Positions 707 to 30,838 are shown, counted from the stretch's first letter. The stretch: DNA of 32,000 nucleotides from Haloferax volcanii DS2 (GCF_000025685.1 NC_013967.1:1020001-1052000), one strand, 5' to 3'. Notes: generated from the letters alone by a model not told the origin. Program-made: numbers and translations.

Positions 707-1228
707 TTACTCGACGACGACGACGCCGACCATGCCGAGCGTCTCGTGGGGGACGCAGACGTACTTGTACTCGCCGGACTCCTCGAACGTGTACTCGAAG
801 GTGTGGCCCTCGGAGACGGTGAGTTCCGACTCGAACAGGCCGTCTTCGCGGTTGACGACGTTGTGCGTCCCGCCGTTTCCGGTCCACTCCCAGACGACCG
901 TCGTTCCCGGCGAGACCTGCACCGCGGCGGGGGCGAACGCGTAGCCGCCGCCGTTGCCTGCCGCGCCGACCGCGACCGTCACGCTGTCCTGTCCCGTCAG
1001 GTCGTGGACGCCGTCGTAGTTTTGCGTCCGGTCGAACCAGCCGCCGAAGTCCCGCATCTCGTGGTCGGCCGTGTCGTCCCCGCCGGACGTGTCGCCGCCG
1101 GCTCCGTCGCCGTCGCCCGCGCCGCCGGAGCCGTCGCCGGACGAACTCGAACAGCCCGCAAGCAGCGCGATACCAGTCGAAGCCGCCGTTGCGTGGAGAA
1201 ACGACCGCCGGGAAACCCGTTGCGTCAT
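707..1228 (-). CDS. halocyanin (type-1 blue copper protein), Tat-secreted lipoprotein
   Basis: The N-terminus MTQRVSRRSFLHATAASTGIALLAGC carries a twin-arginine motif and a lipobox Cys. The C-terminus YVCVPHETLGMVGVVVVE carries Cys-x2-His-x4-Met copper ligands, with an upstream His in GGTHNVV. Confidence 0.9.
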   Translation of the reverse strand: MTQRVSRRSFLHATAASTGIALLAGCSSSSGDGSGGAGDGDGAGGDTSGGDDTADHEMRDFGGWFDRTQNYDGVHDLTGQDSVTVAVGAAGNGGGYAFAPAAVQVSPGTTVVWEWTGNGGTHNVVNREDGLFESELTVSEGHTFEYTFEESGEYKYVCVPHETLGMVGVVVVE

Positions 1229-1328
1229 TAGCTGGCTCTAGTGAGCGGCCGAACAAGTCGAAAGCTTCGATTCCCACGCGCTGAAAACGGGCGAAACGAG
1301 CGTGACCGTCCCGCCCGAAGGCGACGGC

Positions 1329-1658
1329 ATGGACGACGACGACCCGAGGCGACGACCGCGAATCGACGGCAGCCGCCAGTGGGAAGTGTTCTACCGCGAC
1401 GTGCCGACCGAGCCGATGCGCCACGTCGGCAGCGTGAGCGCGCCCTCCGAGGACCTCGCGACCGAGCAGGCGCGGACGCTGTTCGGCGGCGGCGACGCGG
1501 ACCTCTGGCTCGCGCCGGCCGACGAGTTCCTCCGACTCGGCGGGAACGACCTCGCCGCGAAGGGCGAGGAGTCGACCGACGGGACGGAACACGGCGGGAT
1601 GGAGCACGACGGTGCGGGGGACGCCCGCGGTGCCGAAAACGGGGTGTCCGCCGAGTGA
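1329..1658 (+). CDS. small PaaB-fold-like protein with an acidic His/Met-rich tail, partner of the downstream radical SAM enzyme (alternative GTG start at 1302)
   Basis: The core QWEVFYRDVPTEPMRHVGSVSAPSEDLATEQARTLFGGGDADLWLAPADEF aligns by eye with the PaaB signature (YEVFVR...HRHVGS..A.....ALE.AR.......IWVV...E). The stop TGA at 1656-1658 overlaps the GTG start of the next gene. Confidence 0.7.
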   Translation: MDDDDPRRRPRIDGSRQWEVFYRDVPTEPMRHVGSVSAPSEDLATEQARTLFGGGDADLWLAPADEFLRLGGNDLAAKGEESTDGTEHGGMEHDGAGDARGAENGVSAE

Positions 1659-2863
1659 TTTCCATCAGCAAGCTCCTCTGCGGGCAGGGAGCCGAGGGCG
1701 ACGGTCTCCGCTACGACGACCCCGACGCCGACATCGAGCAGATACGCGAGGAGAAACAGAAACGTCCGGTCGTCGTCTGGAACACGACGCGGCGCTGTAA
1801 CCTCTACTGCGAACACTGCTACGCCGGGGCCGACCTCGACCCCGCGCAGGGCGAACTCTCGACCGCCGAGGCGAAGGGCCTCATCGACGACCTCGCGGCC
1901 TACGACGTGCCGGTGCTCCTGTTTTCGGGGGGCGAACCGCTCGTCCGCGAGGACCTCGTCGAACTCGTCGATTACGCGACCGACGCCGGCATCCGGGCGG
2001 TGCTTTCGACCAACGGGACGCTCATCACCGAGGAGAAAGCCCGGGCGCTCCGCGACGCCGGCCTCTCGTACGCCGGCGTCTCCGTCGACGGCTTGGAGGA
2101 ACGCAACGACCGCTTCCGCGGGAAAGACGGCGCGTTCGACGCCGCCGTCCGCGGCATCGAAAACTGCCTCTCGGTGGGGCTCAAGACCGGCCTCCGGTAC
2201 ACCATCACCGAGCACAACGCCGCCGACATGGAGGACGTGGTAGACCTGCTGTACGACGTGGGCGTCGACCGCTTCTGTTTCTACCACCTCGACTACGGCG
2301 GCCGCGGCGGCGACATCGCCGACGCCGACCTCGACGACGAGGCCCAGCGCCGCGCCGTCCGCCGGCTGTTCGACATGACCCGCGAGTACCACGCCGAGGG
2401 CGAGGAGATAGAGACGCTCTTGGTCGGCAACTACGCCGACTCCGCCTACGTGGTCGAGTACGCCGAGGAGGAGCTCGGACGCGACCACGCCGAGCGGATT
2501 CACCGGTATCTCCGCGTCAACGGCGGCGACCCGACCGGCGAGCGCGTCGCCGACGTGGACTACCGCGGCGACGTGCACCTCACGCAGTTCTGGCAGGGGT
2601 ACAGCCTCGGCAACGTCCGGGACCGCCCGTTCGGTGACATCTGGGACGACGAGTCGAACCCGCTTCTCGCCAAACTCCGCGAGCGGGAAGAACACCTCAC
2701 CGGCAAGTGCGCGACCTGCCAGTATCAGGACGTCTGCCGCGGCTCCTCGCGGCTTCGGTCGCTCGCGGCGACGGGCGAACTGTTCGGGCCCGACCCGCAG
2801 TGTTACCTGACGCCCGACGAGCGCGGCGCGGGTGCCGACGCGAGTCCGGGCGCGGCCGACTGA
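1655..2863 (+). CDS. radical SAM/SPASM enzyme of the NirJ/AhbC/AhbD (alternative heme biosynthesis) type
   Basis: From GTG 1655 the protein reads MISISKLLCGQGAEGDGLRYDD...KRPVVVWNTTRRCNLYCEHCY, which is a CxxxCxxC radical SAM cluster with the NirJ/Ahb-type N-terminus. The C-terminal Cys-rich GKCATCQYQDVCRGSSR...PQCY is SPASM-like. The part of the listed ORF upstream of 1655 is Arg-rich and overlaps the 1329..1658 gene in another frame. Confidence 0.9.
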   Translation: MISISKLLCGQGAEGDGLRYDDPDADIEQIREEKQKRPVVVWNTTRRCNLYCEHCYAGADLDPAQGELSTAEAKGLIDDLAAYDVPVLLFSGGEPLVREDLVELVDYATDAGIRAVLSTNGTLITEEKARALRDAGLSYAGVSVDGLEERNDRFRGKDGAFDAAVRGIENCLSVGLKTGLRYTITEHNAADMEDVVDLLYDVGVDRFCFYHLDYGGRGGDIADADLDDEAQRRAVRRLFDMTREYHAEGEEIETLLVGNYADSAYVVEYAEEELGRDHAERIHRYLRVNGGDPTGERVADVDYRGDVHLTQFWQGYSLGNVRDRPFGDIWDDESNPLLAKLREREEHLTGKCATCQYQDVCRGSSRLRSLAATGELFGPDPQCYLTPDERGAGADASPGAAD

Positions 2864-2942: not shown

Positions 2943-3128
2943 ATGGAAACCAAACGGGGAGTTCCGAACATCCTCGGGAACGGGCTCGTCGGCGTCGGTC
3001 TCGTCATCTTCGCCGTCGCGGTCGCGGACGCGGTCGGCGTCGTGGACGCGCGCTTTTCGCCCGGCGTCTACCTGATTTTCGTGGCGATTAGCTTCGTTCT
3101 CGCGTGGCTGTTGCGGTCGCTGACGTAG
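2943..3128 (+). CDS. small membrane protein (61 aa, two predicted TM helices)
   Basis: Internal ATG of the listed 2832..3128 ORF. Translation is METKRGVPNILGNGLVGVGLVIFAVAVADAVGVVDARFSPGVYLIFVAISFVLAWLLRSLT, with two hydrophobic segments. No family recognised. Confidence 0.45.
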   Translation: METKRGVPNILGNGLVGVGLVIFAVAVADAVGVVDARFSPGVYLIFVAISFVLAWLLRSLT

Positions 3129-3194: not shown

Positions 3195-4244
3195 CTATTC
3201 GGCCGCGCCCGCGGCCGCCTGCTTCTCCTCGCGTTCGAGCTCTTCGAGGTAGTCGTCGGCGTCGAGGGCGGCCTTCACGCCCATGCCGCCGGCGGTCGCG
3301 GCCTGCTGGTAGTGGTAGTCGACCACGTCGCCCGCGGCGAAGATGCCGGGCACGTCGGTCGCGGTCTGGCCGCCGCCGGAGCCGCCCTTGGCGACGATGT
3401 AGCCGTCGTCGTCGCGCTGGACGCCCGTGCCGTCGAGGTAGTCGGCGTTCGGCGTGTGGCCGATGGCGTAGAACACCGCGCCCACGTCGAAGTCGAACTC
3501 CTCGGTCTCGGGGTCGTCGAGCTTGTCGCTCGGGTGGCCCTCGGGGTTGCGGACGAGCGTCACGTGGTCGACGCCCTCCTCGGGCGAGCCGTGCAGCTCG
3601 GTCGCCTCGGTGTTGAGCATGAGTTCGATTTCTCCCTCGTCGACCTTCTCCATCAGGCGGTCGACCCAGTAGTCCTCGGCGCGGAACTCCTCGCGGCGGT
3701 GGACGAGGTACACCGTCGAGGCGAACTTGGTGAGGAAGTTGGCCTCCTCGACGGCGGCGTCGCCCCCGCCGATGACCATGATTTTCTCGTCGCGGAAGAA
3801 CGCGCCGTCACAGGTCGCACACGTCGACAGCCCGTAGCCCATCAGGTTCTCCTCGCCGGGGATGCCGAGGGTGCGGGCCGACGCGCCCGACGCCGCGATG
3901 AGGGCGTCCGCAGTGTACACGTCGCCGTTCTTGAGCGTGACCGTGAACGGTCGCTCCGAGGCGTCCACGTCCTCGATGATGCCGTGGCGAATCTCCGTGC
4001 CGAAGCGCTCGGCCTGCTCTTTCATGTTGTTGATGAGCTCCGGGCCGGAGATGCCCTCGGGGAAACCGGGGTAGTTGTCGACCTCGGTCGTGAGCGTGAG
4101 CTGTCCGCCCGGCTCGTCGCCCTCGAGCACCAGCGGCTCGTTGTTGGAGCGGGCCGCGTAGATGGCAGACGAGAGCCCGGAGATACCCGAGCCGGCGATG
4201 ATGAGTTTCCTGTGTTCCACGAACGAATCGGCGTCCTCTGTCAT
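3195..4244 (-). CDS. trxB: thioredoxin-disulfide reductase
   Basis: FAD-binding IIAGSGISGLSSAIYAAR, redox-active CATCDG, and a second dinucleotide motif VIGGGDAAVEEANFL. Confidence 0.92.
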   Translation of the reverse strand: MTEDADSFVEHRKLIIAGSGISGLSSAIYAARSNNEPLVLEGDEPGGQLTLTTEVDNYPGFPEGISGPELINNMKEQAERFGTEIRHGIIEDVDASERPFTVTLKNGDVYTADALIAASGASARTLGIPGEENLMGYGLSTCATCDGAFFRDEKIMVIGGGDAAVEEANFLTKFASTVYLVHRREEFRAEDYWVDRLMEKVDEGEIELMLNTEATELHGSPEEGVDHVTLVRNPEGHPSDKLDDPETEEFDFDVGAVFYAIGHTPNADYLDGTGVQRDDDGYIVAKGGSGGGQTATDVPGIFAAGDVVDYHYQQAATAGGMGVKAALDADDYLEELEREEKQAAAGAAE

Positions 4245-6289: not shown

Positions 6290-8080
6290 TTACTTCGTCC
6301 ACTCCGGGCGGTCGGCCTCGCCGCGGCGAATTTTCGCCAGCGTCTCCTCCGAGAGCAGTCGCTTGACGAACGCCGGAATCCGGTCGGTCGGGTCGGCGGT
6401 CGCATCGTCGCCGGTCGGGGTGGACGCCGCGCCGCCGACTCGGTCGCCCGTCGGACTTGCAGGTCCCGTCCCTCCTCCGACCGCGCGGTCGGCGTTCGCC
6501 GCCGACGCGAGCGCGTAGTGGCCGCCTCTGGTGGCGACGCCGCCGTCGGTCGTCGTCTCGGCGCGCCGGCGGAACGATTCGAGGTCGGCCTCGCGGTCCA
6601 ACTCCTCGACGGCCGTGTCGAGGTCGGCGGCCTGTTCGGCCTGCTCGGAGACGCTCTCGGAGATGCGGTCTATCTCCGCGGTCACCTCGTCGACCTGCGT
6701 CGCCGCGTCGTCGACGAAGGTGGCGATGTCGGAGGTGAGCGTCGCCTGCTCGTCGGTCGCCCGCGCCACCTCGTCGATGCCGTCGGTCACGTCGGCGACC
6801 GAGTCGGTTATCTCGTCGAGGCTCTCGACGGTCGATTCGACCCGCTCGATGCCGTGGTCGATGTTCTCGTCGGCCGACGACAGCGCCTCGGCGGTGTCCT
6901 CGATGTGGTCTGTCACGTCCTCTATCATCTGGCCGATGCGCTCGGCCTGCGACTTCGACTCGTTCGCGAGCGACTTCACCTCGTCCGCGACGACGGCGAA
7001 GCCGGAGCCGGCCTCGCCGGCGCGAGCGGCCTCGATGGAGGCGTTGAGCGCGAGCAGGTTCGTCCGGTCGGCCACCTCGTCGATGACCTCGACGATGTCC
7101 TGAATCTCGTCGATGGCGGCCACGAGCGCCTCGACGTTCACGGTTATCTCGTCGCGGTCGTCGCCGACCTGCCGCATCGCGTCGATTGCCTCGCCGGCCT
7201 CGGCGCGGCCCTCCTCGGCCCGCGTGGTGGCCTCGTCGCTCCGCGAGGACACGTCGTCGGCGGTGGCCGCGACCTCCTCGACGGTCGCGCTGAGGTTCGA
7301 CAGTTCGGCGGCGATTTCCTCGGTCATGTCGGCCTGCCGGGCCGCCAACCCCTCGATTTCCACGATGCTCTCGCTCGTGCCGGCGGTCTCCTCGTGGAGC
7401 TGGGATGCGACCGACTCTAAGTCCCCGCGGCTCTCTCTGGCCCGGCGGACCTCCTCGCGGACGTCCAGCGAGTACGAGTAGAGGTAGGTCGCGTTGACGA
7501 CCTGTCGGTCGAGGTTGAGCCCGCGGACGACCGCCATCATGTCCGCGAACGCCTCGTCGACGGCGTCTTCGACGCGGTCGGCGTCCTCGCCCGACAGCGA
7601 CTCGGTGGCGTCGGCGACGGCGCGCCCGCGGAGTTCGTCCGCGAAGATGCCGGTGACGTTGGCGAACATCCCGCCGAAGTAGTGCAGCGGCATGTCGAGT
7701 TTGTCGTGGAGCAGGCCGATTCGCGTGCGCGCCGCGTAGTGGTTCTGGTCGTAGTTCCCGTCGGTGAACGAGCGGTAGTAGCCGGAGACGACCGCGCGGA
7801 GGCCGTCGAGGTCGGTCTTCGAGCGGTCGATGACGTCCGTCGTCCGCTCGTTCGCGAGAATCGGCTCGACGAAGCCGTCGACGAGCGCCTCGTCGCGGGC
7901 CTCGACGACGCCCCGGAGGTCGGCGAGGCGCGCGGCGTCCTCGTCGTCGAAGCCGACGAACGACTGCCGCCAGCCCAACTCGTCGGCGTCGAGGTCGAGT
8001 TCGTCGAGGAGTTCCGTGGATGAAAGCGAGATGTTGCCGTCGTCGTCGCGGGGGCTGGGCGAAACCATTGACGAACTCAC
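6290..8080 (-). CDS. hemAT: globin-coupled methyl-accepting transducer (HemAT-type aerotaxis sensor) with a C-terminal extension
   Basis: The N-terminus [18 protein letters not shown]...[27 protein letters not shown] resembles the HemAT-Hs sensor globin (AWRLSFTGIDDD...AAQRARIGKIHDVLGL). The MCP signalling hairpin [32 protein letters not shown] is present. Confidence 0.85.
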
Positions 8081-8818: not shown

Positions 8819-9697
8819 ATGCAAGCTCTGGTCATCGTGGCGCACGGGTCGCACCTGAACCCGGATTCGAGCGCCCCCACCTACGACCACGCGGACACGG
8901 TCCGCGAGGCGGGCGCGTTCGACGAGGTACGGACCGGCTTCTGGAAGGAAGAGCCGTCTATCCGCGAGGTGCTCCGGACCGTCGAGGCCGACGAGGTGTA
9001 CGTCGTCCCGCTTTTCATCAGCGAGGGCTACTTCACGGAGCAGGTCATCCCGCGGGAACTCCGCCTCGACGGGTGGGACGTGGCCGACTGGGACTCCGAC
9101 GGCCTGTCGGCGTCGCACGTCACCCTCACCGCGAGCGACGTGCCCGAGAAGACGATTCACTACTGCGGGCCGGTCGGGACGCACGCGGCGATGACCGAGG
9201 TGTTGGTCCGCCGGGCCGAGACGGTCACCGGCGACCCGAACGTCGGTGAGGGCTTCGGCCTCGCCGTCGTCGGCCACGGGACCGAGCGCAACGAGAACTC
9301 CGCGAAGGCAATCGAGTACCACGCCGACCGCATCCGCGAGATGGACCGCTTCGACGAGGTGCAGGCGCTCTACATGGACGAGGAACCCGAGGTCGACGAC
9401 GTGACCGACTACTTCGACTCCGAGGACGTGGTCGTCGTCCCGCTGTTTATCGCCGACGGCTTCCACACCCAGGAGGACATCCCGGAGGACATGGGCCTGA
9501 CCGACGACTACCGAACGGGCTACGACGTGCCCGCCGAGGTCGAGGGCCACCGAATCTGGTACGCCGGCGCGGTCGGCACCGAGGGGCTCATGGCCGACGT
9601 GGTACTCGAACGCGCGGCCGACGCGGGTGCCGACATCGGGAACAGCCTCGAAGTCGTGCGCGAACGCACCCGGAAGACGCCGCAGGAGGCGAACTGA
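8819..9697 (+). CDS. cbiX: sirohydrochlorin chelatase, long two-domain CbiX type
   Basis: Two repeated CbiX halves: VIVAHGSHLNP...VYVVPLFISEGYFT and LAVVGHGTERNENS...VVVVPLFIADGFHTQEDIP. Confidence 0.85.
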   Translation: MQALVIVAHGSHLNPDSSAPTYDHADTVREAGAFDEVRTGFWKEEPSIREVLRTVEADEVYVVPLFISEGYFTEQVIPRELRLDGWDVADWDSDGLSASHVTLTASDVPEKTIHYCGPVGTHAAMTEVLVRRAETVTGDPNVGEGFGLAVVGHGTERNENSAKAIEYHADRIREMDRFDEVQALYMDEEPEVDDVTDYFDSEDVVVVPLFIADGFHTQEDIPEDMGLTDDYRTGYDVPAEVEGHRIWYAGAVGTEGLMADVVLERAADAGADIGNSLEVVRERTRKTPQEAN

Positions 9698-10869
9698 TGG
9701 GGCACCACCGCGACGCCCTCGTCGACGCCGCGGCGACCGGCGACGGCGTTTCGCTCGACGGGCTCACCGTCGCCCCCGACGGCGACGGCGGGTTCCGCCT
9801 CGAAACGCCCGACGCGACGCTCTCGGGGCTCACCGAAGACGGACTCCGCGAGGCTCTCGACGACTGCGACGACTACGCGACGAACTGGTACTTCTGGTCC
9901 GAGGTCGTCGGCGAGTCCAGCCCGCAGCGACGGGCGTTCCTCCGCTGGGTCGAGGGCGCGGTGGTCGATGCGGGCGGTGACGGCGATGGAGACGGAGTCG
10001 GCGGCGACAACGACGCCGACGCTGACGCCGACGCCGCTTCGGTCCCCGAGCGCTACGACGCCCTCCGAGACGGCGTCAGCCGCGAGTGGGGCCAACTGCT
10101 CGTCACGGTCACCGTCGACGACCACGGCGAGCGCTCCTACGAACTCCGCCACGCCGACGAGGCCGCCGCCGACCGCGACGACCTCGACGCCTACCACGAA
10201 CCGCTCGCGGCCCGCCAGTTGGCGACTTACGACGAGAAGGGGCGGTACCGCCCGCTGAAGTCCGGCAGCAACCTCGCCGGCGGCTGGCTGTTCCCCGCCC
10301 TCGACGGCTGCGACCTCGTGGAGACCGTCGAGACGTTCTACCCCGCGTCGGTGCCGAACTGGTACCGCGAGCGCCGGGGCGAACTCGACGTGACCCACTG
10401 GGAGGACGCTATCGGCCGTCAGACCGGGATGTACAGCGTCGTGAAGACGTGGAACCGCGGCGACGGCCACGAACACGTCGACTGGGTCGCGGAGGCCTGC
10501 TGCGCCGACAGCCAGTGCGTCAAGCGCCGCGAGTGGCAGTACGACGACGACACCGACCTCGACGTCGACGGCGGCGACGGCGCGTTCCCGTGCCGCGAGC
10601 CGTGTTCCGTCGTCATCGCGGCGTCCCGCAAGTGGACGCGGCTGGAGGGCGAGGAGACCCAGACCTACGAGTTCGAACTCACGCCCTCGGAGAAACAACA
10701 GGTCGAAGACATCATCGACGCCGTCGCGGACGGCCGCATCGACGACATCCGCGAGGCCGACGTGTACGAGGGCGCGAACCGTTACCGGGCGCGGTTCCTG
10801 CGCGCGAAACTGTTCGACGACGACGGCAACCTCGGCGGCGTCCCGACCGACGCGCCCGACGACGAGTAG
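9697..10869 (+). CDS. DR2241-family protein (Cys-cluster domain), CbiX-associated
   Basis: Its ATG shares one base with the cbiX TGA (TGATG at 9695-9699). The Cys cluster is EACCADSQCVKRREW...FPCREPCSV. I recall DR2241-family genes as frequent neighbours of haloarchaeal cbiX, but this is from memory and unchecked. Confidence 0.7.
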   Translation: MGHHRDALVDAAATGDGVSLDGLTVAPDGDGGFRLETPDATLSGLTEDGLREALDDCDDYATNWYFWSEVVGESSPQRRAFLRWVEGAVVDAGGDGDGDGVGGDNDADADADAASVPERYDALRDGVSREWGQLLVTVTVDDHGERSYELRHADEAAADRDDLDAYHEPLAARQLATYDEKGRYRPLKSGSNLAGGWLFPALDGCDLVETVETFYPASVPNWYRERRGELDVTHWEDAIGRQTGMYSVVKTWNRGDGHEHVDWVAEACCADSQCVKRREWQYDDDTDLDVDGGDGAFPCREPCSVVIAASRKWTRLEGEETQTYEFELTPSEKQQVEDIIDAVADGRIDDIREADVYEGANRYRARFLRAKLFDDDGNLGGVPTDAPDDE

Positions 10870-20245: not shown

Positions 20246-21094
20246 TTACGCGCCGACTTCCGCGCCGACGTAGAGGACGACGACGAGGAAGATCCAGACG
20301 ACGTCCACGAAGTGCCAGTACATCGAGGCCGTGCTGACAGAGACGTGGCGCTCGGTGGAGTACTGCCCGCGGAGCGCGCGGACGAAGACGATACCGAGAA
20401 GCACCGCGCCGAGGCTGACGTGGAGGCCGTGCAGGCCGGTGAGGCCGTAGAACGCCGACCCGAAGATGCCGTCGGTAATCGAGAAGTTCGAGTGGACGAT
20501 GAACTCGTAGTACTCGTACACCTGCCCGCCGATGAATATCACGCCGAGCAGGAGCGTGACCGCGAGCCCGAGGATGAAGTTACGGTGGTTCTCCTCGCGG
20601 ATGGCGACGTGCGCCCAGTGGAGCGTGAGACTGGACACGATGAGGATGGCGGTGTTCGCTAACACTAACGACCCCGTGAGATGCGGGAGTTCCTGCGGTG
20701 GCCACGTCCCCGCGCGGATGAAGAAGTAGTACGCGAACAGCGCGCCGAACGTCCCGAGTTCGGAGCCGAGGAAGGCAATCATCCCCCAGCGGAGCTTCGA
20801 TGCGCTCTTCTGGCTCGCGTCGCGCGACCAGAAGTGGCTCACGAACGCGTGGTACAACCAGCCGTAGAGTCCGGCCAGGAAGAGGAAGATACTGCCGACG
20901 AACACGGCGGGGCCCGCCGTCTGGCCGACGATTCCGTCCTGTCCCATGACGTACAGCCCGGCACCGGCGTAGATGCCCGCGCCCCCGACGGCGGTGACGA
21001 ACGGCCACCAGCTCGCCTCGCCGAAGCCGCGCGGCCAGTCCTGAACCGCCGGCAGGTGATGGCCGTGGTCGTCGTGTGCTTCTTCGGTACTCAT
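20246..21094 (-). CDS. coxC: heme-copper (cytochrome c) oxidase subunit III
   Basis: Seven-TM protein ending in the typical subunit III pattern FGSAFYGLTGLHGLHVSLGAVLL...STASMYWHFVDVVWIFLVVVLY. Confidence 0.9.
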   Translation of the reverse strand: MSTEEAHDDHGHHLPAVQDWPRGFGEASWWPFVTAVGGAGIYAGAGLYVMGQDGIVGQTAGPAVFVGSIFLFLAGLYGWLYHAFVSHFWSRDASQKSASKLRWGMIAFLGSELGTFGALFAYYFFIRAGTWPPQELPHLTGSLVLANTAILIVSSLTLHWAHVAIREENHRNFILGLAVTLLLGVIFIGGQVYEYYEFIVHSNFSITDGIFGSAFYGLTGLHGLHVSLGAVLLGIVFVRALRGQYSTERHVSVSTASMYWHFVDVVWIFLVVVLYVGAEVGA

Positions 21095-24421: not shown

Positions 24422-25093
24422 TCACGCCCAGTAGAAGCGCGGCCCGAGAAACAGGTAGCCGAGCGCCAAGAACAGCAGGCCGAACGAGAAGCCCTCACCG
24501 AGCGTCCCCGAGCAGACGATTGCGAGGCCCTGCACCACACCCATGACGAGCGCGTCCTGCGCGTGGAGGTCGGGGTAGGTCACGTCCGAGAGCATCAGCG
24601 CGGCCATAACCGCCGAGAGGCCGACGAGCAACATCGGCTCGACGAAGCCGACGAGGACGCCCGCAGACAGAATCGTCGCGGCGAGCGTCGTCGGCACCCC
24701 GACCGTCTCGTCGGACCCGCTGTCGTAGGCGGTGTAGAGCGCCAGCCTGACGACCGCGGCCGCGACGAACAGCGCGGCGACGCCGACGCCGGCGACGACT
24801 CGGACCCGGTCGAAACCCCACATCTCGCGGACGACGGCGACGACGAGCAGCGCCGGGGCGACGCCGAAGGAGGCCACGTCCGCGAGGGAGTCGAGGTACG
24901 GCCCGGCGTCGGTCCCACCGTAGCGTCGGGCGACCACGCCGTCGAGGCCGTCGGCCATCGCGGCGAGCAGGATGACCTTGGCCGCGAGGTGCACGTCGAC
25001 CGCGGTTAACACCGCGGCGACGAATCCCAGCGCCGCGTTCCCGGCGGTGACCACGTCGGCGGGGCCCAACCGACCGACGAATCGGGGTCTCAT
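24422..25093 (-). CDS. pssA: archaetidylserine synthase-type CDP-alcohol phosphatidyltransferase
   Basis: Internal ATG (cat at 25091-25093) gives MRPRFVGRLGPADVVTAGNAALGF.... ADGLDGVVARRYGGTDAGPYLDSLADVASFGVAPALL is the PssA-type variant of the CDP-alcohol motif (DSLADxxSFGVAPA). Confidence 0.85.
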   Translation of the reverse strand: MRPRFVGRLGPADVVTAGNAALGFVAAVLTAVDVHLAAKVILLAAMADGLDGVVARRYGGTDAGPYLDSLADVASFGVAPALLVVAVVREMWGFDRVRVVAGVGVAALFVAAAVVRLALYTAYDSGSDETVGVPTTLAATILSAGVLVGFVEPMLLVGLSAVMAALMLSDVTYPDLHAQDALVMGVVQGLAIVCSGTLGEGFSFGLLFLALGYLFLGPRFYWA

Positions 25094-25230
25094 ACCGATG
25101 CGATTGCGTACCTGCCCTTTCCCTCTTACGTTCCGTCCGTCAGCCCGCGGCTCCGCGTCGTTACCGCCCGCCCCGGTCGGAGTCGGCGCGTTTCGCCCCG
25201 CTCGGCGGTTCGCCGGGCGAACCATGCGAC

Positions 25231-25237
25231 ATTTATC
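25231..25237 (+). promoter_or_regulatory. TATA-like box (ATTTATC) for the second halocyanin
   Basis: Centred about 26 nt upstream of ATG 25260. This favours 25260 over the in-frame ATG at 25224. Confidence 0.3.
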
Positions 25238-25259
25238 GGTCGCGTCCCGAGAAGCGACC

Positions 25260-25706
25260 ATGCGAGACCACGGGTCTTCGAACGGCGGTCGGACACGGCG
25301 TCAGTTCCTCGCGGCGACCGGTGCGGCGGCAACCGCCGGCCTCGCGGGCTGTGCGACCCTGACGGCGTCCGGCGACGACTTCGACATCGGGATGACCGCG
25401 GTCGCGTTCGACCCGCCGACGGTGACCGTCGAGGCCGGCGACGAGGTCGTCTGGCGCAACACGAGCTCCCGCGGCCACACCGTCACCGCCTACGAGGGCA
25501 CCCTCCCCGAGGGAGCCGCGTTCTTCGCCAGCGGCGGCTACGAGACCGAACAGGCCGCCCGCGACGCCTACTCCAACTCGCTCGGCGGGCTCATCGGCAG
25601 CGGCGAGACCTACACGTACAGCTTCGACGTGCCCGGCGAGTACGAGTATCTCTGTATCCCCCACGAGCAGGCCGGCATGGTCGGCACCATCGTCGTCGAA
25701 GAGTAG
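25260..25706 (+). CDS. halocyanin / plastocyanin-family blue copper protein, Tat lipoprotein (alternative start 25224)
   Basis: Twin-arginine motif and lipobox in GRTRRQFLAATGAAATAGLAGC. Copper ligands are RGHTV and YLCIPHEQAGMVGTIVVEE (Cys-x2-His-x4-Met). Confidence 0.88.
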   Translation: MRDHGSSNGGRTRRQFLAATGAAATAGLAGCATLTASGDDFDIGMTAVAFDPPTVTVEAGDEVVWRNTSSRGHTVTAYEGTLPEGAAFFASGGYETEQAARDAYSNSLGGLIGSGETYTYSFDVPGEYEYLCIPHEQAGMVGTIVVEE

Positions 25707-28314: not shown

Positions 28315-28527
28315 TGTTGCGGGTTGGAACCGCACTGACCGCAGAAACGAGTACCCCGCAGTCGTATCACCGACTACCGGGGCACTACCGCAATCCCAAG
28401 CCCAAACTGGGCGAGTCAGATTTGCGGCCGTGCTGGATTCCCATCGGGTTGTCCACGCGCGCCGGGTTAAACCGTTTCGACTCGGCTCCGAATTGACCGC
28501 GACTCGGTCCGGTCGGAATCGAAGGGC

Positions 28528-28558: not shown

Positions 28559-28630
28559 GGGCTCGTAGATCAGGGGTAGATCACTCCCTTGGCATGGGAG
28601 AGGCCCCGGGTTCAAATCCCGGCGAGTCCA
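28559..28630 (+). tRNA. tRNA-Ala (anticodon GGC), no encoded CCA, no intron
   Basis: Hand-folded cloverleaf: acceptor GGGCTCG/CGAGTCC with the G3:U70 Ala identity pair, D arm GATC-AGGGGTA-GATC, anticodon arm CTCCC-TTGGCAT-GGGAG, variable loop AGGCC, T arm CCGGG-TTCAAAT-CCCGG, discriminator A. Total 72 nt. Confidence 0.9.
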
Positions 28631-29583: not shown

Positions 29584-30838
29584 GTGTCTCCGACCGTCAC
29601 GAAGACGTTGCAGGCGGCGTTCGCGCCACCCACCGCGCACAAGCAGTCGAAACTCAACGACCTGCTGGAAACCTACCGTGACGGTCTGCAAGAGGCGTTC
29701 GACGCCGGGGCGAGTACCATGTCGGCGGTGAGTGAAATCGCGACGCCCTACGACCTGCCGTATCAGGCCAAAGCCGCGCTCTGCAACTACGTCCCGAAAC
29801 TCCGCAAGACGTACAGCGCGAAGGAGTTGGACGACAGCCACCCGATACGGCTCACGAACCAAGCCGCGAAGTTCGACCACTCCGCCGAACGCGACTACGA
29901 GTTCACGTGGTGTGTTCCCCGTCCCGGTCGGGGAACGAACTTCTGGATACCGCTCCGTATCAACCCCGAACAGGAAGGCCTCTGGCACGACCTCGTATCG
30001 GAGGACGCGAAGGCGGGTGAGATACGGCTTCAGAAGCATCGGAAGAACTGGGTACTGCACGTCACCGTCGAGTACCCGGTCGAAGAACCAGCGACGGGGT
30101 GACGCCACGCACATCGGCTTAGACATCGGAGAAACCGCCCTCATCACGGGCTGTGCCCTCAAGGATGGTTCTCCGACTGATCCGTTCGTGTGTAGCGGAA
30201 GCAGAGCGAAGCATCTCCGCAAAGAGATGCACACGACCCTGAAACGACTCCAAGAGCGTGACGCATCCGAGTGGCGGATTGAAGACCGATTCAGCCACTA
30301 CCAGAACGCGCTCACCGACATCGTGGAGAAAGTGTCTCGGCAAGCCGTCGAGTACGCCCAACAGTTCGAGAACCCGGTGTTGGTGATGGAGGACTTAACG
30401 TACATCCGTGAACGGCTTTACGGGAAGTACATGAACCGTCGCCTTCACTCGTGGGCGTTCGCCCGACTCCAAGGGCGCATCGAGGACAAGGCGACGGAAG
30501 CAGGCATTCCGGTCGAGTACGTGAATCCGGCGTACACCTCGCAGACGTGCCACTCGTGCCACCGTATCGGTCGGCGGGACTCACAAGCCGAGTTCCGGTG
30601 TCCGAACGACGACTGCCACGTTTCGACGTTTCAGGCCGACATCAACGCTTCCGCTAATATCGCACGACGGGTTGACCCGTGGGGAGAGAGCGTCCCGCTT
30701 GACAAGGCGGAACGCGATGACTCGCCACGGGATGGGAGCAGTTGTGACACCGCCACGACTCACCGTGAGACGAGCGTACCAGCGCAGATGACGCTCACGG
30801 CCTACGAAGAGTCGAAACCCTCTGCCAGCGACTACTGA
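29584..30838 (+). pseudogene. tnpB: TnpB (RuvC-like RNA-guided nuclease, OrfB_IS605), interrupted by a +1 frameshift at the G4 run 30096-30099
   Basis: The N-terminal half is in frame 1 (GTG 29584 to TGA 30102: MSPTVTKTLQAAF...VTVEYPVEEPATG*). The remainder is in frame 2 (GDATHIGLDIGETAL...VMEDL...CHSCH...CPNDDCH...QADINASANIA, to 30838), carrying the RuvC D/E/D motifs and the zinc finger. Removing one G from ACGGGGTGAC restores ...PATGDATHIGLDIGE. Confidence 0.85.

What the first reader, a model, noticed from the sequence alone, without database searches (positions are those of the whole stretch)
1302..2863. Translationally coupled PaaB-fold-like protein + NirJ/AhbD-type radical SAM/SPASM enzyme, outside any phenylacetate context
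The small upstream protein has a core (QWEVFYRDVPTEPMRHVGSVSAPSEDLATEQARTLFGGGDADLWLAPADEF). By eye it matches the PaaB signature of the phenylacetyl-CoA epoxidase subunit B (YEVFVR..HRHVGS..A....ALENAR......IWVV..SEI). A ~40-aa acidic tail rich in His, Met and Gly follows (TDGTEHGGMEHDGAGDARGAENGVSAE). Its stop overlaps the GTG start of the rSAM gene (GTGA at 1655-1658), implying coupled translation and 1:1 stoichiometry. No paaA/C/D/E genes are in the window. The rSAM N-terminus (MISISKLLCG..GDGLRYDD..KRPVVVWNTTRRCNLYCEHCY) is the heme d1 / alternative-heme type (NirJ, AhbC, AhbD). I recall, without being able to check, a haloarchaea-restricted family labelled rSAM-partnered (Htur_1727 family, candidate RiPP precursor), and this may be a member. 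There are two competing readings. (a) The tail is a peptide substrate, although it lacks Cys, which is unusual for SPASM RiPP maturases. (b) The folded PaaB-like domain is an accessory or tetrapyrrole-handling subunit of a heme-pathway rSAM. Neither role has been demonstrated to my knowledge.
Basis: partly seen in the sequence, partly recalled or inferred. Interest (0 to 1): 0.7.

Follow-up and report, generated by a model that had tools for sequence, protein, structure and literature searches.

The report
Heme enzyme AhbC with PaaB-like partner
This is the Haloferax gene for the heme-pathway radical SAM enzyme AhbC, preceded by an overlapping small gene for a PaaB-fold protein; the pair is real, conserved across salt-loving archaea and already catalogued, but the small protein's job has never been tested and it is more likely a helper subunit than a modified peptide.

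Summary
A 118-aa ORF (1302-1658) overlaps by 4 nt (GTGA) a 402-aa radical SAM gene (1655-2863). The small protein passes the NCBIfam Htur_1727 model and Pfam PaaB. Its AlphaFold core matches only PaaB structures (TM 0.80), and its tail is predicted disordered. The rSAM is a TIGR04347 protein with an intact CxxxCxxC and the NirJ/AhbC-type CX2CX5CX21C motif. Gene order identifies it as HVO_1121, curated in the literature as ahbC.

Of 80 haloarchaeal loci, 74 carry the partner directly upstream, and 71 of those keep the 4-nt overlap. Median pairwise identity is 72% for the rSAM, 53% for the partner core and 10% for the tail. The conserved tail end coincides with the rSAM's Shine-Dalgarno site. 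Five loci lack the partner yet keep an intact rSAM. An AhbD-like rSAM lies within 4 kb in 28 loci, and by locus-tag numbering the namesake Htur_1727 lies between the curated ahbC/ahbD orthologs.

I favour a non-catalytic PaaB-like accessory or bridging subunit of haloarchaeal AhbC (confidence about 0.55) over a RiPP precursor (about 0.1). Both proteins are already named in RefSeq, so this is a known pair of unknown function. Interest is moderate.

The parts
1302..1658 (+). Small partner gene, 118 aa as annotated (GTG start). An alternative, more conserved start is the ATG at 1329, giving 109 aa. It belongs to the Htur_1727 family (TIGR04031) and is presumably the gene just before HVO_1121.
   Evidence: ORF. 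TIGR04031 scores 69 bits against a cutoff of 57.2. It is 100% identical to the RefSeq 'Htur_1727 family rSAM-partnered candidate RiPP [Haloferax]'. Met10 is invariant in alignment A1.
1374..1565 (+). PaaB-fold core of the partner (residues ~25-88), with a strand-strand-helix-strand-helix layout.
   Evidence: Pfam PaaB covers aa 26-79 at 32.9 bits. AF2 elements are E25-32, E40-47, H50-61, E67-72 and H81-88, with block-mean pLDDT 82-94 over residues 21-80. The only significant Foldseek PDB hits are PaaB 4iit_B and 3egr, TM 0.80. There are 19 invariant columns in 20 homologs, and the core motif is conserved in 74 loci.
1566..1655 (+). Acidic, Gly-rich C-terminal tail of the partner (residues ~89-118). 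It is predicted disordered and varies by lineage.
   Evidence: pLDDT is below 50 for residues 90-117. No residue after L84 is invariant. Median pairwise tail identity is 10%, against 53% for the core. Tail length ranges from 0 to 47 aa beyond the profile match in 74 loci and reaches ~100 aa in P0198.
1641..1646 (+). SD-like GGGGTG inside the partner's last codons, 9-14 nt upstream of the rSAM start. It encodes the 'GV' of the conserved ...NGVSAE end.
   Evidence: Across 81 junctions, G occurs at -12 in 68 and at -11 in 76. An SD-like pentamer lies at -18 to -6 in 65 of 81, including the partner-less loci.
1655..1658 (+). GTGA overlap: the rSAM start codon GTG overlaps the partner stop codon TGA.
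   Evidence: Sequence. The same 4-nt overlap (36 GTGA, 35 ATGA) occurs in 71 of 74 partner-bearing loci.
1655..2863 (+). Radical SAM enzyme, 402 aa, of family TIGR04347. It is the haloarchaeal AhbC ortholog (HVO_1121), the predicted 12,18-didecarboxysiroheme deacetylase.
   Evidence: TIGR04347 scores 752.8 bits against a cutoff of 525. The next best models are AhbC (450 bits) and NirJ1 (449 bits), both aligned full-length from model position 1. Counting genes to CbiX2 = HVO_1128 identifies it as HVO_1121 (PMC8305020). That paper reports 47% identity to M. barkeri AhbC.
1796..1819 (+). Radical SAM cluster motif C48-x3-C52-x2-C55 (CNLYCEHC).
   Evidence: The motif is present in 120 of 120 homologs. 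C48, C52 and C55 are invariant in alignment A2. The five partner-less rSAMs also keep it.
2708..2803 (+). Auxiliary-cluster motif C352-x2-C355-x5-C361-x21-C383.
   Evidence: These Cys are invariant in A2, and the motif is present in 80 of 80 loci. It matches the CX2CX5CX20-21C motif described for NirJ, with almost the same motif in AhbC and AhbD (PMC10114771).
2918..2922 (+). T5 run 55 nt after the rSAM stop; a possible archaeal terminator marking the end of the two-gene unit.
   Evidence: Read directly from the sequence. It was not tested with any tool, and its role is inferred.
8819..9697 (+). Context only, not part of the operon: the double-CbiX chelatase gene cbiX2 (HVO_1128), the predicted sirohydrochlorin ferrochelatase of the same heme pathway.
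   Evidence: Pfam CbiX x2 in the gene table. NF002670 scores 594 bits, with a CfbA-type chelatase domain match. The prediction as ferrochelatase is from PMC8305020.

Best explanation
The two genes form a bicistronic, translationally coupled unit of the siroheme-dependent (alternative) heme pathway.

The large gene is the haloarchaeal ortholog of AhbC. AhbC is the radical SAM enzyme that removes the two acetate side chains of 12,18-didecarboxysiroheme to give coproheme. Coproheme is then converted to heme b by AhbD (anaerobic) or ChdC (aerobic).

The small gene encodes a folded PaaB-type domain followed by a disordered acidic tail. I propose it is a non-catalytic accessory subunit that binds AhbC. 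By analogy with PaaB, which clamps onto PaaA/PaaC and dimerises to bridge two catalytic units, it would stabilise or oligomerise the enzyme. It might also bridge AhbC to the next enzyme. On this view it is not a peptide substrate.

Shown here: the PaaB fold, family membership, the conserved 4-nt overlap and SD, the conservation pattern, and intact radical SAM and auxiliary-cluster motifs.

Inferred: AhbC activity (from orthology and pathway logic), physical binding of the partner, and any bridging role.
For: rSAM = AhbC ortholog:
- The AhbC and NirJ1 models align full-length, including the N-terminal extension.
- The CX2CX5CX21C auxiliary motif fits NirJ/AhbC/AhbD.
- The gene is curated as ahbC/HVO_1121, 47% identical to the M. 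barkeri enzyme, and listed as the pathway's AhbC.
- CbiX2 of the same pathway lies 7 kb downstream.
- An AhbD-like TIGR04053 rSAM lies within 4 kb in 28 of 80 loci, 26 of them divergent and directly upstream of the partner.
- By locus-tag numbering, the family namesake Htur_1727 lies between Htur_1726 and Htur_1728, the curated ahbC/ahbD orthologs.

Partner = folded accessory protein:
- It has the PaaB fold and PaaB homology.
- PaaB is a bridging subunit that dimerises.
- The conserved part is the domain: 53% median identity and 19 invariant columns. The tail is disordered and only 10% identical.
- The partner is directly upstream in 74 of 79 evaluable loci, with a 4-nt overlap in 71.

Against a substrate role:
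- Five loci lack the partner gene yet have a full-length rSAM with both Cys motifs and no shared substitutions.
- No H. pallida or H. persicus homolog was found elsewhere.
- The conserved tail end is explained by the rSAM's SD.
Against: - Nothing here shows physical interaction. I could not run a complex prediction.
- M. barkeri AhbC was active in E. coli cell-free extracts with no such partner, so AhbC chemistry does not intrinsically need it.
- The partner is absent from five loci, so it is not obligatory everywhere.
- The rSAM fails the curated AhbC cutoff (450 against 650 bits). NCBI places it in a separate family labelled 'pseudo-SAM/SPASM' with a 'candidate RiPP' partner.
- No haloarchaeal ahbC has been tested genetically or biochemically.
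- Lineage-specific tail motifs (e.g. EPRVYEETEGTP in Natrialbales and Halorubrum) show that parts of the tail are under peptide-level selection that I cannot explain.
- The 80 loci are the best-matching 80 of 262, not a random sample.
Confidence: 0.55

Rival explanations
1. RiPP-type system, as in the NCBIfam label. The PaaB-like domain acts as a large leader or recognition domain, and the C-terminal tail is a core peptide modified by the rSAM. This would resemble the NHLP and Nif11 precursor families, whose leaders derive from folded proteins (from memory).
For: - The pair is strictly adjacent and translationally coupled to an rSAM with a C-terminal auxiliary cluster.
- The pattern of a conserved N-terminal part and a variable C-terminal part is what many RiPP precursors show.
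- Lineage-specific tail motifs such as EPRVYEETEGTP contain Tyr, Glu and Thr, and occur only in partner ORFs.
- The rSAM has weak homology to PqqE and MftC-type maturases.
Against: - The rSAM is 69-98% identical among the 120 listed homologs and is the curated heme enzyme ortholog.
- There is no universally conserved tail residue. Tails range from 0 to ~100 aa, and the window's tail lacks Cys and Tyr.
- Conservation at the tail's end coincides with the SD.
- Five loci lost the 'precursor' yet kept an intact 'maturase'.
- No RRE/PqqD domain is present on the rSAM, and no peptidase or exporter is conserved nearby.
- The 'leader' is a confidently folded domain.
Confidence: 0.1
2. The small gene matters mainly for expression. 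It would be an upstream cistron whose translation delivers ribosomes to the rSAM start and tunes AhbC synthesis. Its PaaB-like product would have an unrelated function, or none.
For: - The 4-nt overlap and the internal SD are the most conserved junction features.
- In the four partner-less Halorientalis loci a short ~26-aa ORF still ends in the same ATGA overlap. This suggests that coupling itself is retained when the domain is lost.
Against: - The PaaB-like core is under clear protein-level constraint across orders: invariant W, E, R, H, G and W positions, and 53% median identity. A pure spacer cistron would not need that.
- An exhaustive search found about 80 clusters with halophile-like composition.
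Confidence: 0.12
3. The rSAM is not AhbC but a neofunctionalised haloarchaeal paralog acting on another tetrapyrrole or an unknown small molecule, with the PaaB-like protein as its specific partner. In that case the DDSH-to-coproheme step in haloarchaea is done by something else.
For: - It fails the curated AhbC cutoff and forms its own NCBIfam family.
- Natrialba magadii was reported to lack ahbC/ahbD orthologs yet is thought to make heme. That implies another route for this step may exist in haloarchaea.
- No genetic or biochemical test of HVO_1121 was found.
Against: - It has full-length similarity to the AhbC and NirJ1 models and 47% identity to the characterised M. barkeri AhbC.
- It is the gene that two papers list as the pathway's AhbC in H. 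volcanii.
- It clusters with an AhbD-like gene in many genera.
Confidence: 0.12

Closest known systems
PaaB, bridging subunit of phenylacetyl-CoA epoxidase PaaABC(D)E (PF06243; PDB 3egr, 4iit_B)
   Same: It has the same small strand-strand-helix-strand fold (TM 0.80, rmsd 1.7-1.9 A, 24-29% identity). It shares the WEVF..R....HVGS signature and scores above the Pfam gathering score. PaaB is a non-catalytic subunit that binds its catalytic partners and dimerises (PMC4498308), which is the role I propose here.
   Different: It fails both NCBIfam PaaB equivalog cutoffs: 24.5 against 85.45 bits, and 22 against 150 bits. No paaA/C/E genes lie nearby. Its partner is a radical SAM enzyme, not a di-iron oxygenase. 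It carries a family-specific N-terminal PR motif, a WLCPA motif and an acidic disordered tail. Family members have halophile-like composition.
AhbC (12,18-didecarboxysiroheme deacetylase) of Methanosarcina barkeri and Desulfovibrio; NirJ1
   Same: The AhbC (TIGR04546) and NirJ1 (TIGR04054) models align full-length, including the N-terminal extension. It has CxxxCxxC plus a CX2CX5CX21C auxiliary motif. It is 47% identical to Mbar_A1793 (PMC8305020). It has the same predicted place in the siroheme-dependent pathway.
   Different: It scores below the curated AhbC cutoff and forms a haloarchaea-specific clade (TIGR04347). It is the only clade seen here with a dedicated, overlapping PaaB-like upstream gene. 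The M. barkeri enzyme worked in E. coli cell-free extracts with no such protein mentioned (PMC10114771). Its activity is untested.
NCBIfam pair TIGR04031 (Htur_1727 family rSAM-partnered candidate RiPP) + TIGR04347 (pseudo-SAM/SPASM protein)
   Same: The window's two proteins are members. Both pass the curated cutoffs, and they are identical or 98% identical to RefSeq proteins carrying these names.
   Different: The names do not fit what I found. The SAM-cluster motif is intact in 120 of 120 homologs and the auxiliary motif in 80 of 80 loci, so the enzyme is not visibly 'pseudo'. The evidence also disfavours a RiPP role for the partner.
Folded-domain-derived RiPP leaders (NHLP and Nif11 precursor families) with rSAM/SPASM maturases; PqqA/PqqD/PqqE
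   Same: A small protein with a conserved N-terminal part and a variable C-terminal part is encoded next to an rSAM with an auxiliary cluster. The closest solved structure to the rSAM is PqqE.
   Different: There is no conserved core peptide, no Gly-Gly type cleavage site, no RRE/PqqD, and no peptidase or exporter. There is a single copy at each locus. The rSAM is much more conserved than its supposed substrate and survives loss of that substrate. The features of those families are stated from memory.
TIGR04053 rSAM/SPASM (AhbD-like) + TIGR03995 'CGCGG family putative rSAM-modified RiPP'
   Same: This is a second haloarchaeal heme-type rSAM clade that NCBIfam pairs with a small 'RiPP' protein. 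It lies in the same cluster as the AhbC-like pair in Natrialbales.
   Different: The small protein belongs to a different family (a Cys-rich CGCGG motif, not a PaaB fold). It is not translationally coupled to its rSAM in the locus I examined. It is absent from this window.

Membership tests
TIGR04031 Htur_1727 family | Score at or above the curated NCBIfam cutoff | tested here: met
   69 bits against a cutoff of 57.2, covering aa 18-78. The protein is 100% identical to the RefSeq protein of that name.
TIGR04031 Htur_1727 family | Encoded next to a TIGR04347-type rSAM, in Halobacteria | tested here: met
   It overlaps the TIGR04347 gene by 4 nt. The window is a Haloferax locus. The same arrangement is found in 74 of 79 evaluable loci.
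PaaB (Pfam PF06243 / PaaB fold) | Pfam gathering score and PaaB three-dimensional fold | tested here: met
   32.9 bits against 27. The only Foldseek matches at about E <= 0.001 are PaaB chains, TM 0.80.
PaaB sensu stricto (phenylacetyl-CoA epoxidase subunit B; TIGR02157, NF041867) | Equivalog cutoff score | tested here: not met
   24.5 against 85.45 bits, and 22 against 150 bits.
PaaB sensu stricto (phenylacetyl-CoA epoxidase subunit B; TIGR02157, NF041867) | Genomic association with paaA, paaC, paaE | tested here: not met
   No such Pfam families were found among the called or scanned genes of the window.
TIGR04347 rSAM family | Score at or above the curated cutoff | tested here: met
   752.8 bits against 525, full length.
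Radical SAM superfamily | CxxxCxxC cluster motif and GGEP SAM-binding motif | tested here: met
   CNLYCEHC at residues 48-55, and G92 G93 E94 P95 are invariant. Pfam Radical_SAM scores 107 bits.
SPASM domain | Seven-Cys pattern binding two auxiliary clusters | tested here: not met
   Only C352, C355, C361 and C383 are present in the C-terminal part, with Ser where the CX3C cysteine would be. There is no Cys between 208 and 352. The Pfam SPASM hit is weak but above its gathering score: 26.1 against 21.5.
AhbC (TIGR04546, 12,18-didecarboxysiroheme deacetylase) | Equivalog cutoff score | tested here: not met
   450.2 against 650 bits, although the alignment spans model positions 1-389 of 390. The haloarchaeal clade has its own model.
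AhbC (TIGR04546, 12,18-didecarboxysiroheme deacetylase) | NirJ/AhbC-type auxiliary motif CX2CX5CX20-21C | tested here: met
   C352-x2-C355-x5-C361-x21-C383 in the window, and a match to CX2CX5CX20-22C in 80 of 80 loci. The motif is described in PMC10114771.
AhbC (TIGR04546, 12,18-didecarboxysiroheme deacetylase) | Association with other genes of the siroheme-dependent heme pathway | tested here: inconclusive
   CbiX2 lies 7 kb away in the window. An AhbD-like rSAM lies within 4 kb in 28 of 80 loci, but not in Haloferax. The curated ahbC/ahbD orthologs flank Htur_1727.
AhbC (TIGR04546, 12,18-didecarboxysiroheme deacetylase) | Converts didecarboxysiroheme to coproheme | not testable with these tools
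   This has been shown only for the M. barkeri enzyme in cell-free extracts (PMC10114771). No study of HVO_1121 was found.
RiPP precursor plus rSAM maturase system | A conserved or recognisable core peptide in the precursor | tested here: not met
   There is no invariant tail residue. Tail identity is 10% and tail length varies from 0 to ~100 aa. Motifs are only lineage-specific.
RiPP precursor plus rSAM maturase system | RRE/PqqD-like recognition domain, peptidase or exporter in the cluster | tested here: not met
   The rSAM has only the Radical_SAM, Fer4_12 and SPASM domains. The neighbours are a halocyanin, thioredoxin reductase and CysRS. No such neighbour is conserved across loci.
RiPP precursor plus rSAM maturase system | Maturase depends on the precursor (the two are lost together) | tested here: not met
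   Five loci lack the partner but keep an intact rSAM. No H. pallida or H. persicus homolog was retrieved. Relocation within those genomes is not fully excluded.
RiPP precursor plus rSAM maturase system | Covalent modification of the peptide | not testable with these tools
   This needs mass spectrometry.

The most novel reading that the evidence does not exclude
The PaaB-like protein really is a substrate. On this reading, a heme-pathway-derived radical SAM enzyme modifies the tail of a protein whose 'leader' is a whole PaaB-fold domain, either in addition to or instead of its AhbC chemistry. That would be a new RiPP or protein-modification class and a moonlighting tetrapyrrole enzyme. The lineage-specific EPRVYEETEGTP-type motifs would be the modified sites.
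Probability: 0.08. Interest if true: 0.8.

Novelty: already known. Interest (0 to 1): 0.35.

Why it matters
AhbC is the least understood step of the alternative heme pathway. According to a 2022 review, its activity has been shown only in cell-free extracts, and no study with purified enzyme, structure or mechanism has been published.

If haloarchaeal AhbC works with a dedicated PaaB-fold subunit, that would be the first accessory subunit known for a tetrapyrrole radical SAM enzyme. It might help in obtaining a stable, purifiable AhbC. It would also show the PaaB bridging module reused outside aromatic catabolism.

There is a practical point too. Two public annotation traditions contradict each other for this pair: 'candidate RiPP + pseudo-SAM' against 'ahbC'. 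The evidence here favours the heme reading. The same conflict may affect the neighbouring TIGR04053/CGCGG pair.

The finding itself is not new. The pairing and the PaaB similarity are already in public databases.

Tried and rejected
1. The first literature search was swamped by 'pseudo-sample' hits. None of the listed papers contains Htur_1727, TIGR04031 or TIGR04347. Later searches for HVO_1120 and 'rSAM-partnered' also found nothing.

2. I looked for natural partner-rSAM fusions among 1.84 billion representatives. The only long hits (P0174, P0201) are mis-framed, Arg-rich ORF calls, so I rejected them.

3. The 'pseudo-SAM' label suggested a lost cluster motif. I rejected that: 120 of 120 homologs keep CxxxCxxC, and 80 of 80 loci keep the auxiliary motif.

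4. Unsupervised clustering of neighbour ORFs merged unrelated families because of high-GC spurious ORFs. I replaced it with targeted BLAST.

5. The listing of cluster members gave almost no taxonomy for distant hits. I used composition (pI, Lys content) and NCBIfam scans instead.

6. I asked whether the EPRVYEETEGTP motif is shared with other proteins at these loci, as a docking motif might be. It is not.

7. I considered predicting the complex by handing in an artificial partner+rSAM concatenation.

8. There are only 2 His and 1 Met, and they are not conserved within the genus.

9. Correction: during the work I first miscounted 73 of 80 loci with a partner and 7 exceptions. The tally gives 74 with a partner and 6 exceptions (5 true absences and 1 truncated contig).
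Full report
**1. What is in the sequence**

The window carries a 118-aa ORF at 1302-1658 (+, GTG start) and a 402-aa ORF at 1655-2863 (+, GTG start). The TGA stop of the first overlaps the GTG start of the second as GTGA at 1655-1658.

A more conserved start for the small gene is the ATG at 1329. That Met10 is invariant in 20 homologs, whereas the nine residues before it occur only in the closest relatives. The long antisense and out-of-frame ORFs in this region are Arg/Pro-rich products typical of wrong frames in high-GC DNA, and I did not pursue them.

**2. Family assignment**

- The small protein passes the NCBIfam model TIGR04031, 'Htur_1727 family rSAM-partnered candidate RiPP' (69 bits, cutoff 57.2).
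- It also passes Pfam PaaB (32.9 bits, gathering score 27).
- It fails both PaaB equivalog models (24.5 against 85.45 bits; 22 against 150 bits).
- The large protein is a full-length TIGR04347 member (752.8 bits, cutoff 525).
- Its next best models are AhbC (450 bits) and NirJ1 (449 bits), both below their 650-bit cutoffs but aligned from model position 1. After those come NirJ (369 bits) and AhbD (223 bits).

Both proteins are identical or 98% identical to RefSeq Haloferax proteins that already carry these names.

**3. Where the window comes from and what the rSAM is called in the literature**

The small protein is encoded identically on Haloferax chromosomes. The gene table there gives this order: halocyanin, partner, rSAM, a 61-aa protein, thioredoxin reductase, DUF357, CysRS, a protoglobin-MCP, DUF7523, a double-CbiX protein, and a DR2241/Fer4_23 protein.

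The curated Haloferax volcanii annotation names HVO_1128 as cbiX2 and HVO_1121 as ahbC, 47% identical to the characterised Methanosarcina barkeri AhbC (PMC8305020). Counting seven genes back from the CbiX gene lands on the window's rSAM. Kosugi et al. also list HVO_1121 as the AhbC of the H. volcanii pathway (PMC5746218).

Identifying the window's rSAM with HVO_1121 is therefore an inference from gene order. I did not see the locus tags themselves.

**4. The rSAM is a bona fide radical SAM enzyme by sequence**

The 'pseudo-SAM' label made me check the cluster motifs.

- All 120 listed homologs keep CxxxCxxC.
- In a 20-sequence alignment spanning many genera, C9, C48, C52, C55, C208, C352, C355, C361 and C383 and the GGEP motif are invariant.
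- The C-terminal pattern C352-x2-C355-x5-C361-x21-C383 is present in 80 of 80 loci. It matches the CX2CX5CX20-21C auxiliary-cluster motif described for NirJ, with almost the same motif in AhbC and AhbD (PMC10114771).
- The seven-Cys SPASM pattern is not present, so this is a one-auxiliary-cluster arrangement.
- No AhbC or NirJ structure exists in the PDB. The nearest solved structure is PqqE.

**5. The small protein is a PaaB-fold domain plus a disordered tail**

AlphaFold2 with 20 homologs gives a strand-strand-helix-strand-helix core with block-mean pLDDT of 82-94 over residues 21-80. Residues 90-117 have pLDDT below 50.

In the Foldseek search of the PDB, the top three matches are all PaaB chains: 4iit_B, 3egr_B and 3egr_A. 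E-values are 7.6e-4 to 1.2e-3, target-normalised TM is 0.80, rmsd is 1.7-1.9 A over 59 columns, and identity is 24-29%. The next hit has E = 0.2.

An exhaustive profile search of 1.84 billion representatives found 244 hits. The top ~78 have halophile-like composition (median pI 4.5, almost no Lys) and the family motif WEVF.R....HVGSV.A....A.E.A..LF......WLCPA....R. The weaker hits are ordinary PaaB proteins, including ~180-aa tandem forms. There are no genuine fusions to an rSAM.

**6. Conservation of the pairing**

I fetched the 80 best of 262 genomic matches to the rSAM. All are Halobacteria, spanning Haloferax, Halobellus, Halorubrum, Natrinema, Haloarcula, Halosimplex and others.

- A partner homolog lies immediately upstream on the same strand in 74 loci.
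- One further locus is cut off by a contig end.
- Five loci lack the partner: Halorientalis pallida (two assemblies), Halorientalis sp., H. persicus, and a Haloferacaceae MAG.
- In 71 of the 74 the genes overlap by 4 nt (36 GTGA, 35 ATGA).
- Upstream of the rSAM start there is a conserved purine-rich element: G at -12 in 68 of 81 junctions and at -11 in 76 of 81. An SD-like pentamer lies at -18 to -6 in 65 of 81, including the partner-less loci. In the window it is GGGGTG at 1641-1646.

These are the sequence hallmarks of translational coupling. Coupling itself, and 1:1 stoichiometry, remain inferences.

**7. What is conserved in the partner**

Among non-redundant locus pairs, median pairwise identity is 72% for the rSAM, 53% for the partner core and 10% for the tail.

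Tails extend 0 to 47 aa beyond the profile match in the 74 loci and reach ~100 aa in one metagenomic member. No tail residue is universally conserved. The window's 'TEHGGMEHDG' segment is replaced or deleted in sister Haloferax species.

The only recurrent feature at the very end ('GV' or 'EV' four to five codons before the stop) coincides with the SD of the rSAM.

Some lineages do share a peptide motif. EP-RVYEET-EGTP occurs in Natrialbales and Halorubrum, and MSVDEMESETLRG occurs in Haloarcula. At these loci RVYEET is found only in partner ORFs. The window's protein lacks these motifs, and I cannot explain them.

**8. Heme context**

An rSAM of ~377 aa lies within 4 kb in 28 of the 80 loci. 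In 26 of them it is divergent and directly upstream of the partner. The Halopiger member is TIGR04053 (495 bits, cutoff 395), with AhbD as the next best model (339.5 bits). The others are 65-84% identical to it.

The Natrialba magadii genome paper states that the AhbC and AhbD orthologs of Haloterrigena turkmenica are Htur_1726 and Htur_1728, and those of Natronomonas pharaonis are NP1542A and NP1546A (PMC3403918). By locus-tag numbering, the family's namesake Htur_1727 should therefore lie between the two curated heme rSAM genes. That is the arrangement I see in Halopiger.

In Haloferax the AhbD-like gene is elsewhere, but cbiX2, the predicted sirohydrochlorin ferrochelatase, lies 7 kb downstream.

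No paaA/C/D/E-type family was found in the ORFs I scanned in the window.

**9. The natural deletions**

In the four Halorientalis loci the halocyanin gene ends about 80-170 nt from the rSAM start, and the PaaB-like gene is gone. A conserved ~26-aa ORF (MSPRL..ARSIVGRDRSPT..DR*) still ends in the ATGA overlap. Halorientalis brevis keeps the partner.

The partner-less rSAMs are full-length and 84-86% identical to the H. brevis enzyme. They retain both Cys motifs and share no substitutions at otherwise conserved positions.

A database search with the H. brevis partner retrieved H. salina and a Halorientalis MAG, but nothing from H. pallida or H. persicus. This is consistent with real loss, although it does not prove it.

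An enzyme whose only job was to modify this protein should decay once the protein is lost. It has not decayed.

**10. Interpretation**

The best-supported reading is that the rSAM is the haloarchaeal AhbC and the small protein is a non-catalytic PaaB-fold accessory subunit.

PaaB in its own system is the 'bridging subunit'. It binds in a cleft between PaaA and PaaC, and two PaaB molecules dimerise to build the heterohexamer (PMC4498308). By analogy, the Htur_1727 protein may clamp onto AhbC and oligomerise it, or link it to a neighbouring pathway enzyme. Its position between ahbD and ahbC in many genomes makes that last idea attractive but untested.

The partner cannot be intrinsically required for AhbC chemistry. 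The M. barkeri enzyme worked in E. coli cell-free extracts with no such protein mentioned (PMC10114771), and some Halorientalis loci lack it. A halophile-specific stabilising role, or an oxygen-protective one, is possible but pure speculation.

I put this explanation at about 0.55. The rivals are:
- the RiPP reading, about 0.1;
- an expression-only role for the upstream cistron, about 0.12;
- a neofunctionalised, non-AhbC rSAM, about 0.12.

**11. Novelty and interest**

The pairing, the family names and the PaaB similarity are already in public databases, and the rSAM is already curated as ahbC. In that sense the finding is already known.

What is not known is the function of the partner. I found no paper that mentions it. 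[quoted passage not shown]

The useful outputs of this analysis are three. It reconciles two conflicting annotations. It shows that the RiPP label is poorly supported. It sets out a testable subunit hypothesis. Interest is moderate (0.35).

Noticed in passing
L034, L035, L042, L050 at about 3920-4004: In four Halorientalis loci the PaaB-like gene is deleted. A conserved ~26-aa ORF (MSPRL..ARSIVGRDRSPT..DR*) still ends in the ATGA overlap with the rSAM start, preceded by GAGGTG or GGGGTG. It may be a remnant, or a minimal coupling ORF.
   Followed up: partly
Partner tails in L039, L048, L054, L057-L059, L061, L064, L067, L070, L072, L077, L079 and others: A lineage-specific tail motif, EP-RVYEET-EGTP, occurs in Natrialbales and Halorubrum. 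It often starts exactly 15 residues from the C-terminus. Haloarcula has MSVDEMESETLRG instead. At these loci RVYEET is found only in partner ORFs, and the window's protein lacks it. It is unexplained.
   Followed up: partly
L003 6719-7852 (-) and 10262-10594 (-); 11 Natrialbales-type loci: The AhbD-like rSAM (TIGR04053) and a TIGR03995 'CGCGG family putative rSAM-modified RiPP' gene flank the AhbC-like pair. So both heme-type rSAM clades of haloarchaea are labelled as RiPP systems by NCBIfam, and the same re-interpretation may apply to this second pair.
   Followed up: partly
window 1796-1819 and homologs P0021-P0140: The family name 'pseudo-SAM/SPASM' does not match the sequences. CxxxCxxC is intact in 120 of 120 homologs, and the GGEP motif is invariant in the 20-sequence alignment A2. 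What is reduced is the SPASM part, which has four Cys instead of seven.
   Followed up: yes
window 6290-8080 (-), 8819-9697 (+), 9697-10869 (+): Within 8 kb of the ahbC-like gene lie a protoglobin-domain methyl-accepting transducer (a likely heme-based sensor), the double-CbiX chelatase cbiX2, and a DR2241/Fer4_23 ferredoxin-like protein whose start overlaps the CbiX stop. Together these form a loose heme-related neighbourhood in Haloferax.
   Followed up: partly
P0220-P0276 (representative search): A set of ~165-210-aa proteins carries two tandem PaaB-like domains and has non-halophilic composition. They are probably bacterial PaaB variants. Their context is unknown.
   Followed up: no
PMC3403918: Natrialba magadii was reported to lack ahbC and ahbD orthologs while keeping ahbA/ahbB. 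If that is true, some haloarchaea must convert didecarboxysiroheme to coproheme with an unknown enzyme. Two other Natrialba species (L057, L061) do carry the pair.
   Followed up: no
window 29732-30838 (+), 28382-28444 (-), 28559-28630 (+): A TnpB/Cas12f1-like TNB-domain ORF (IS200/IS605-type element), an S15-Halobacteria ribosomal leader (67 bits) and a tRNA.
   Followed up: no
window 707-1228 (-), 24972-25706 (+), 20246-21094 (-): The window has two halocyanin-type blue copper proteins, one of them divergent from the partner gene, and a cytochrome oxidase subunit III. A halocyanin is the upstream neighbour of the pair in 30 of 80 loci, mostly Haloferacales.
   Followed up: partly
window 2943-3128 (+): A 61-aa hydrophobic ORF lies directly after the rSAM. 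It is called as a gene in the public assemblies and is conserved only within Haloferax (10 loci). It has no family match.
   Followed up: partly
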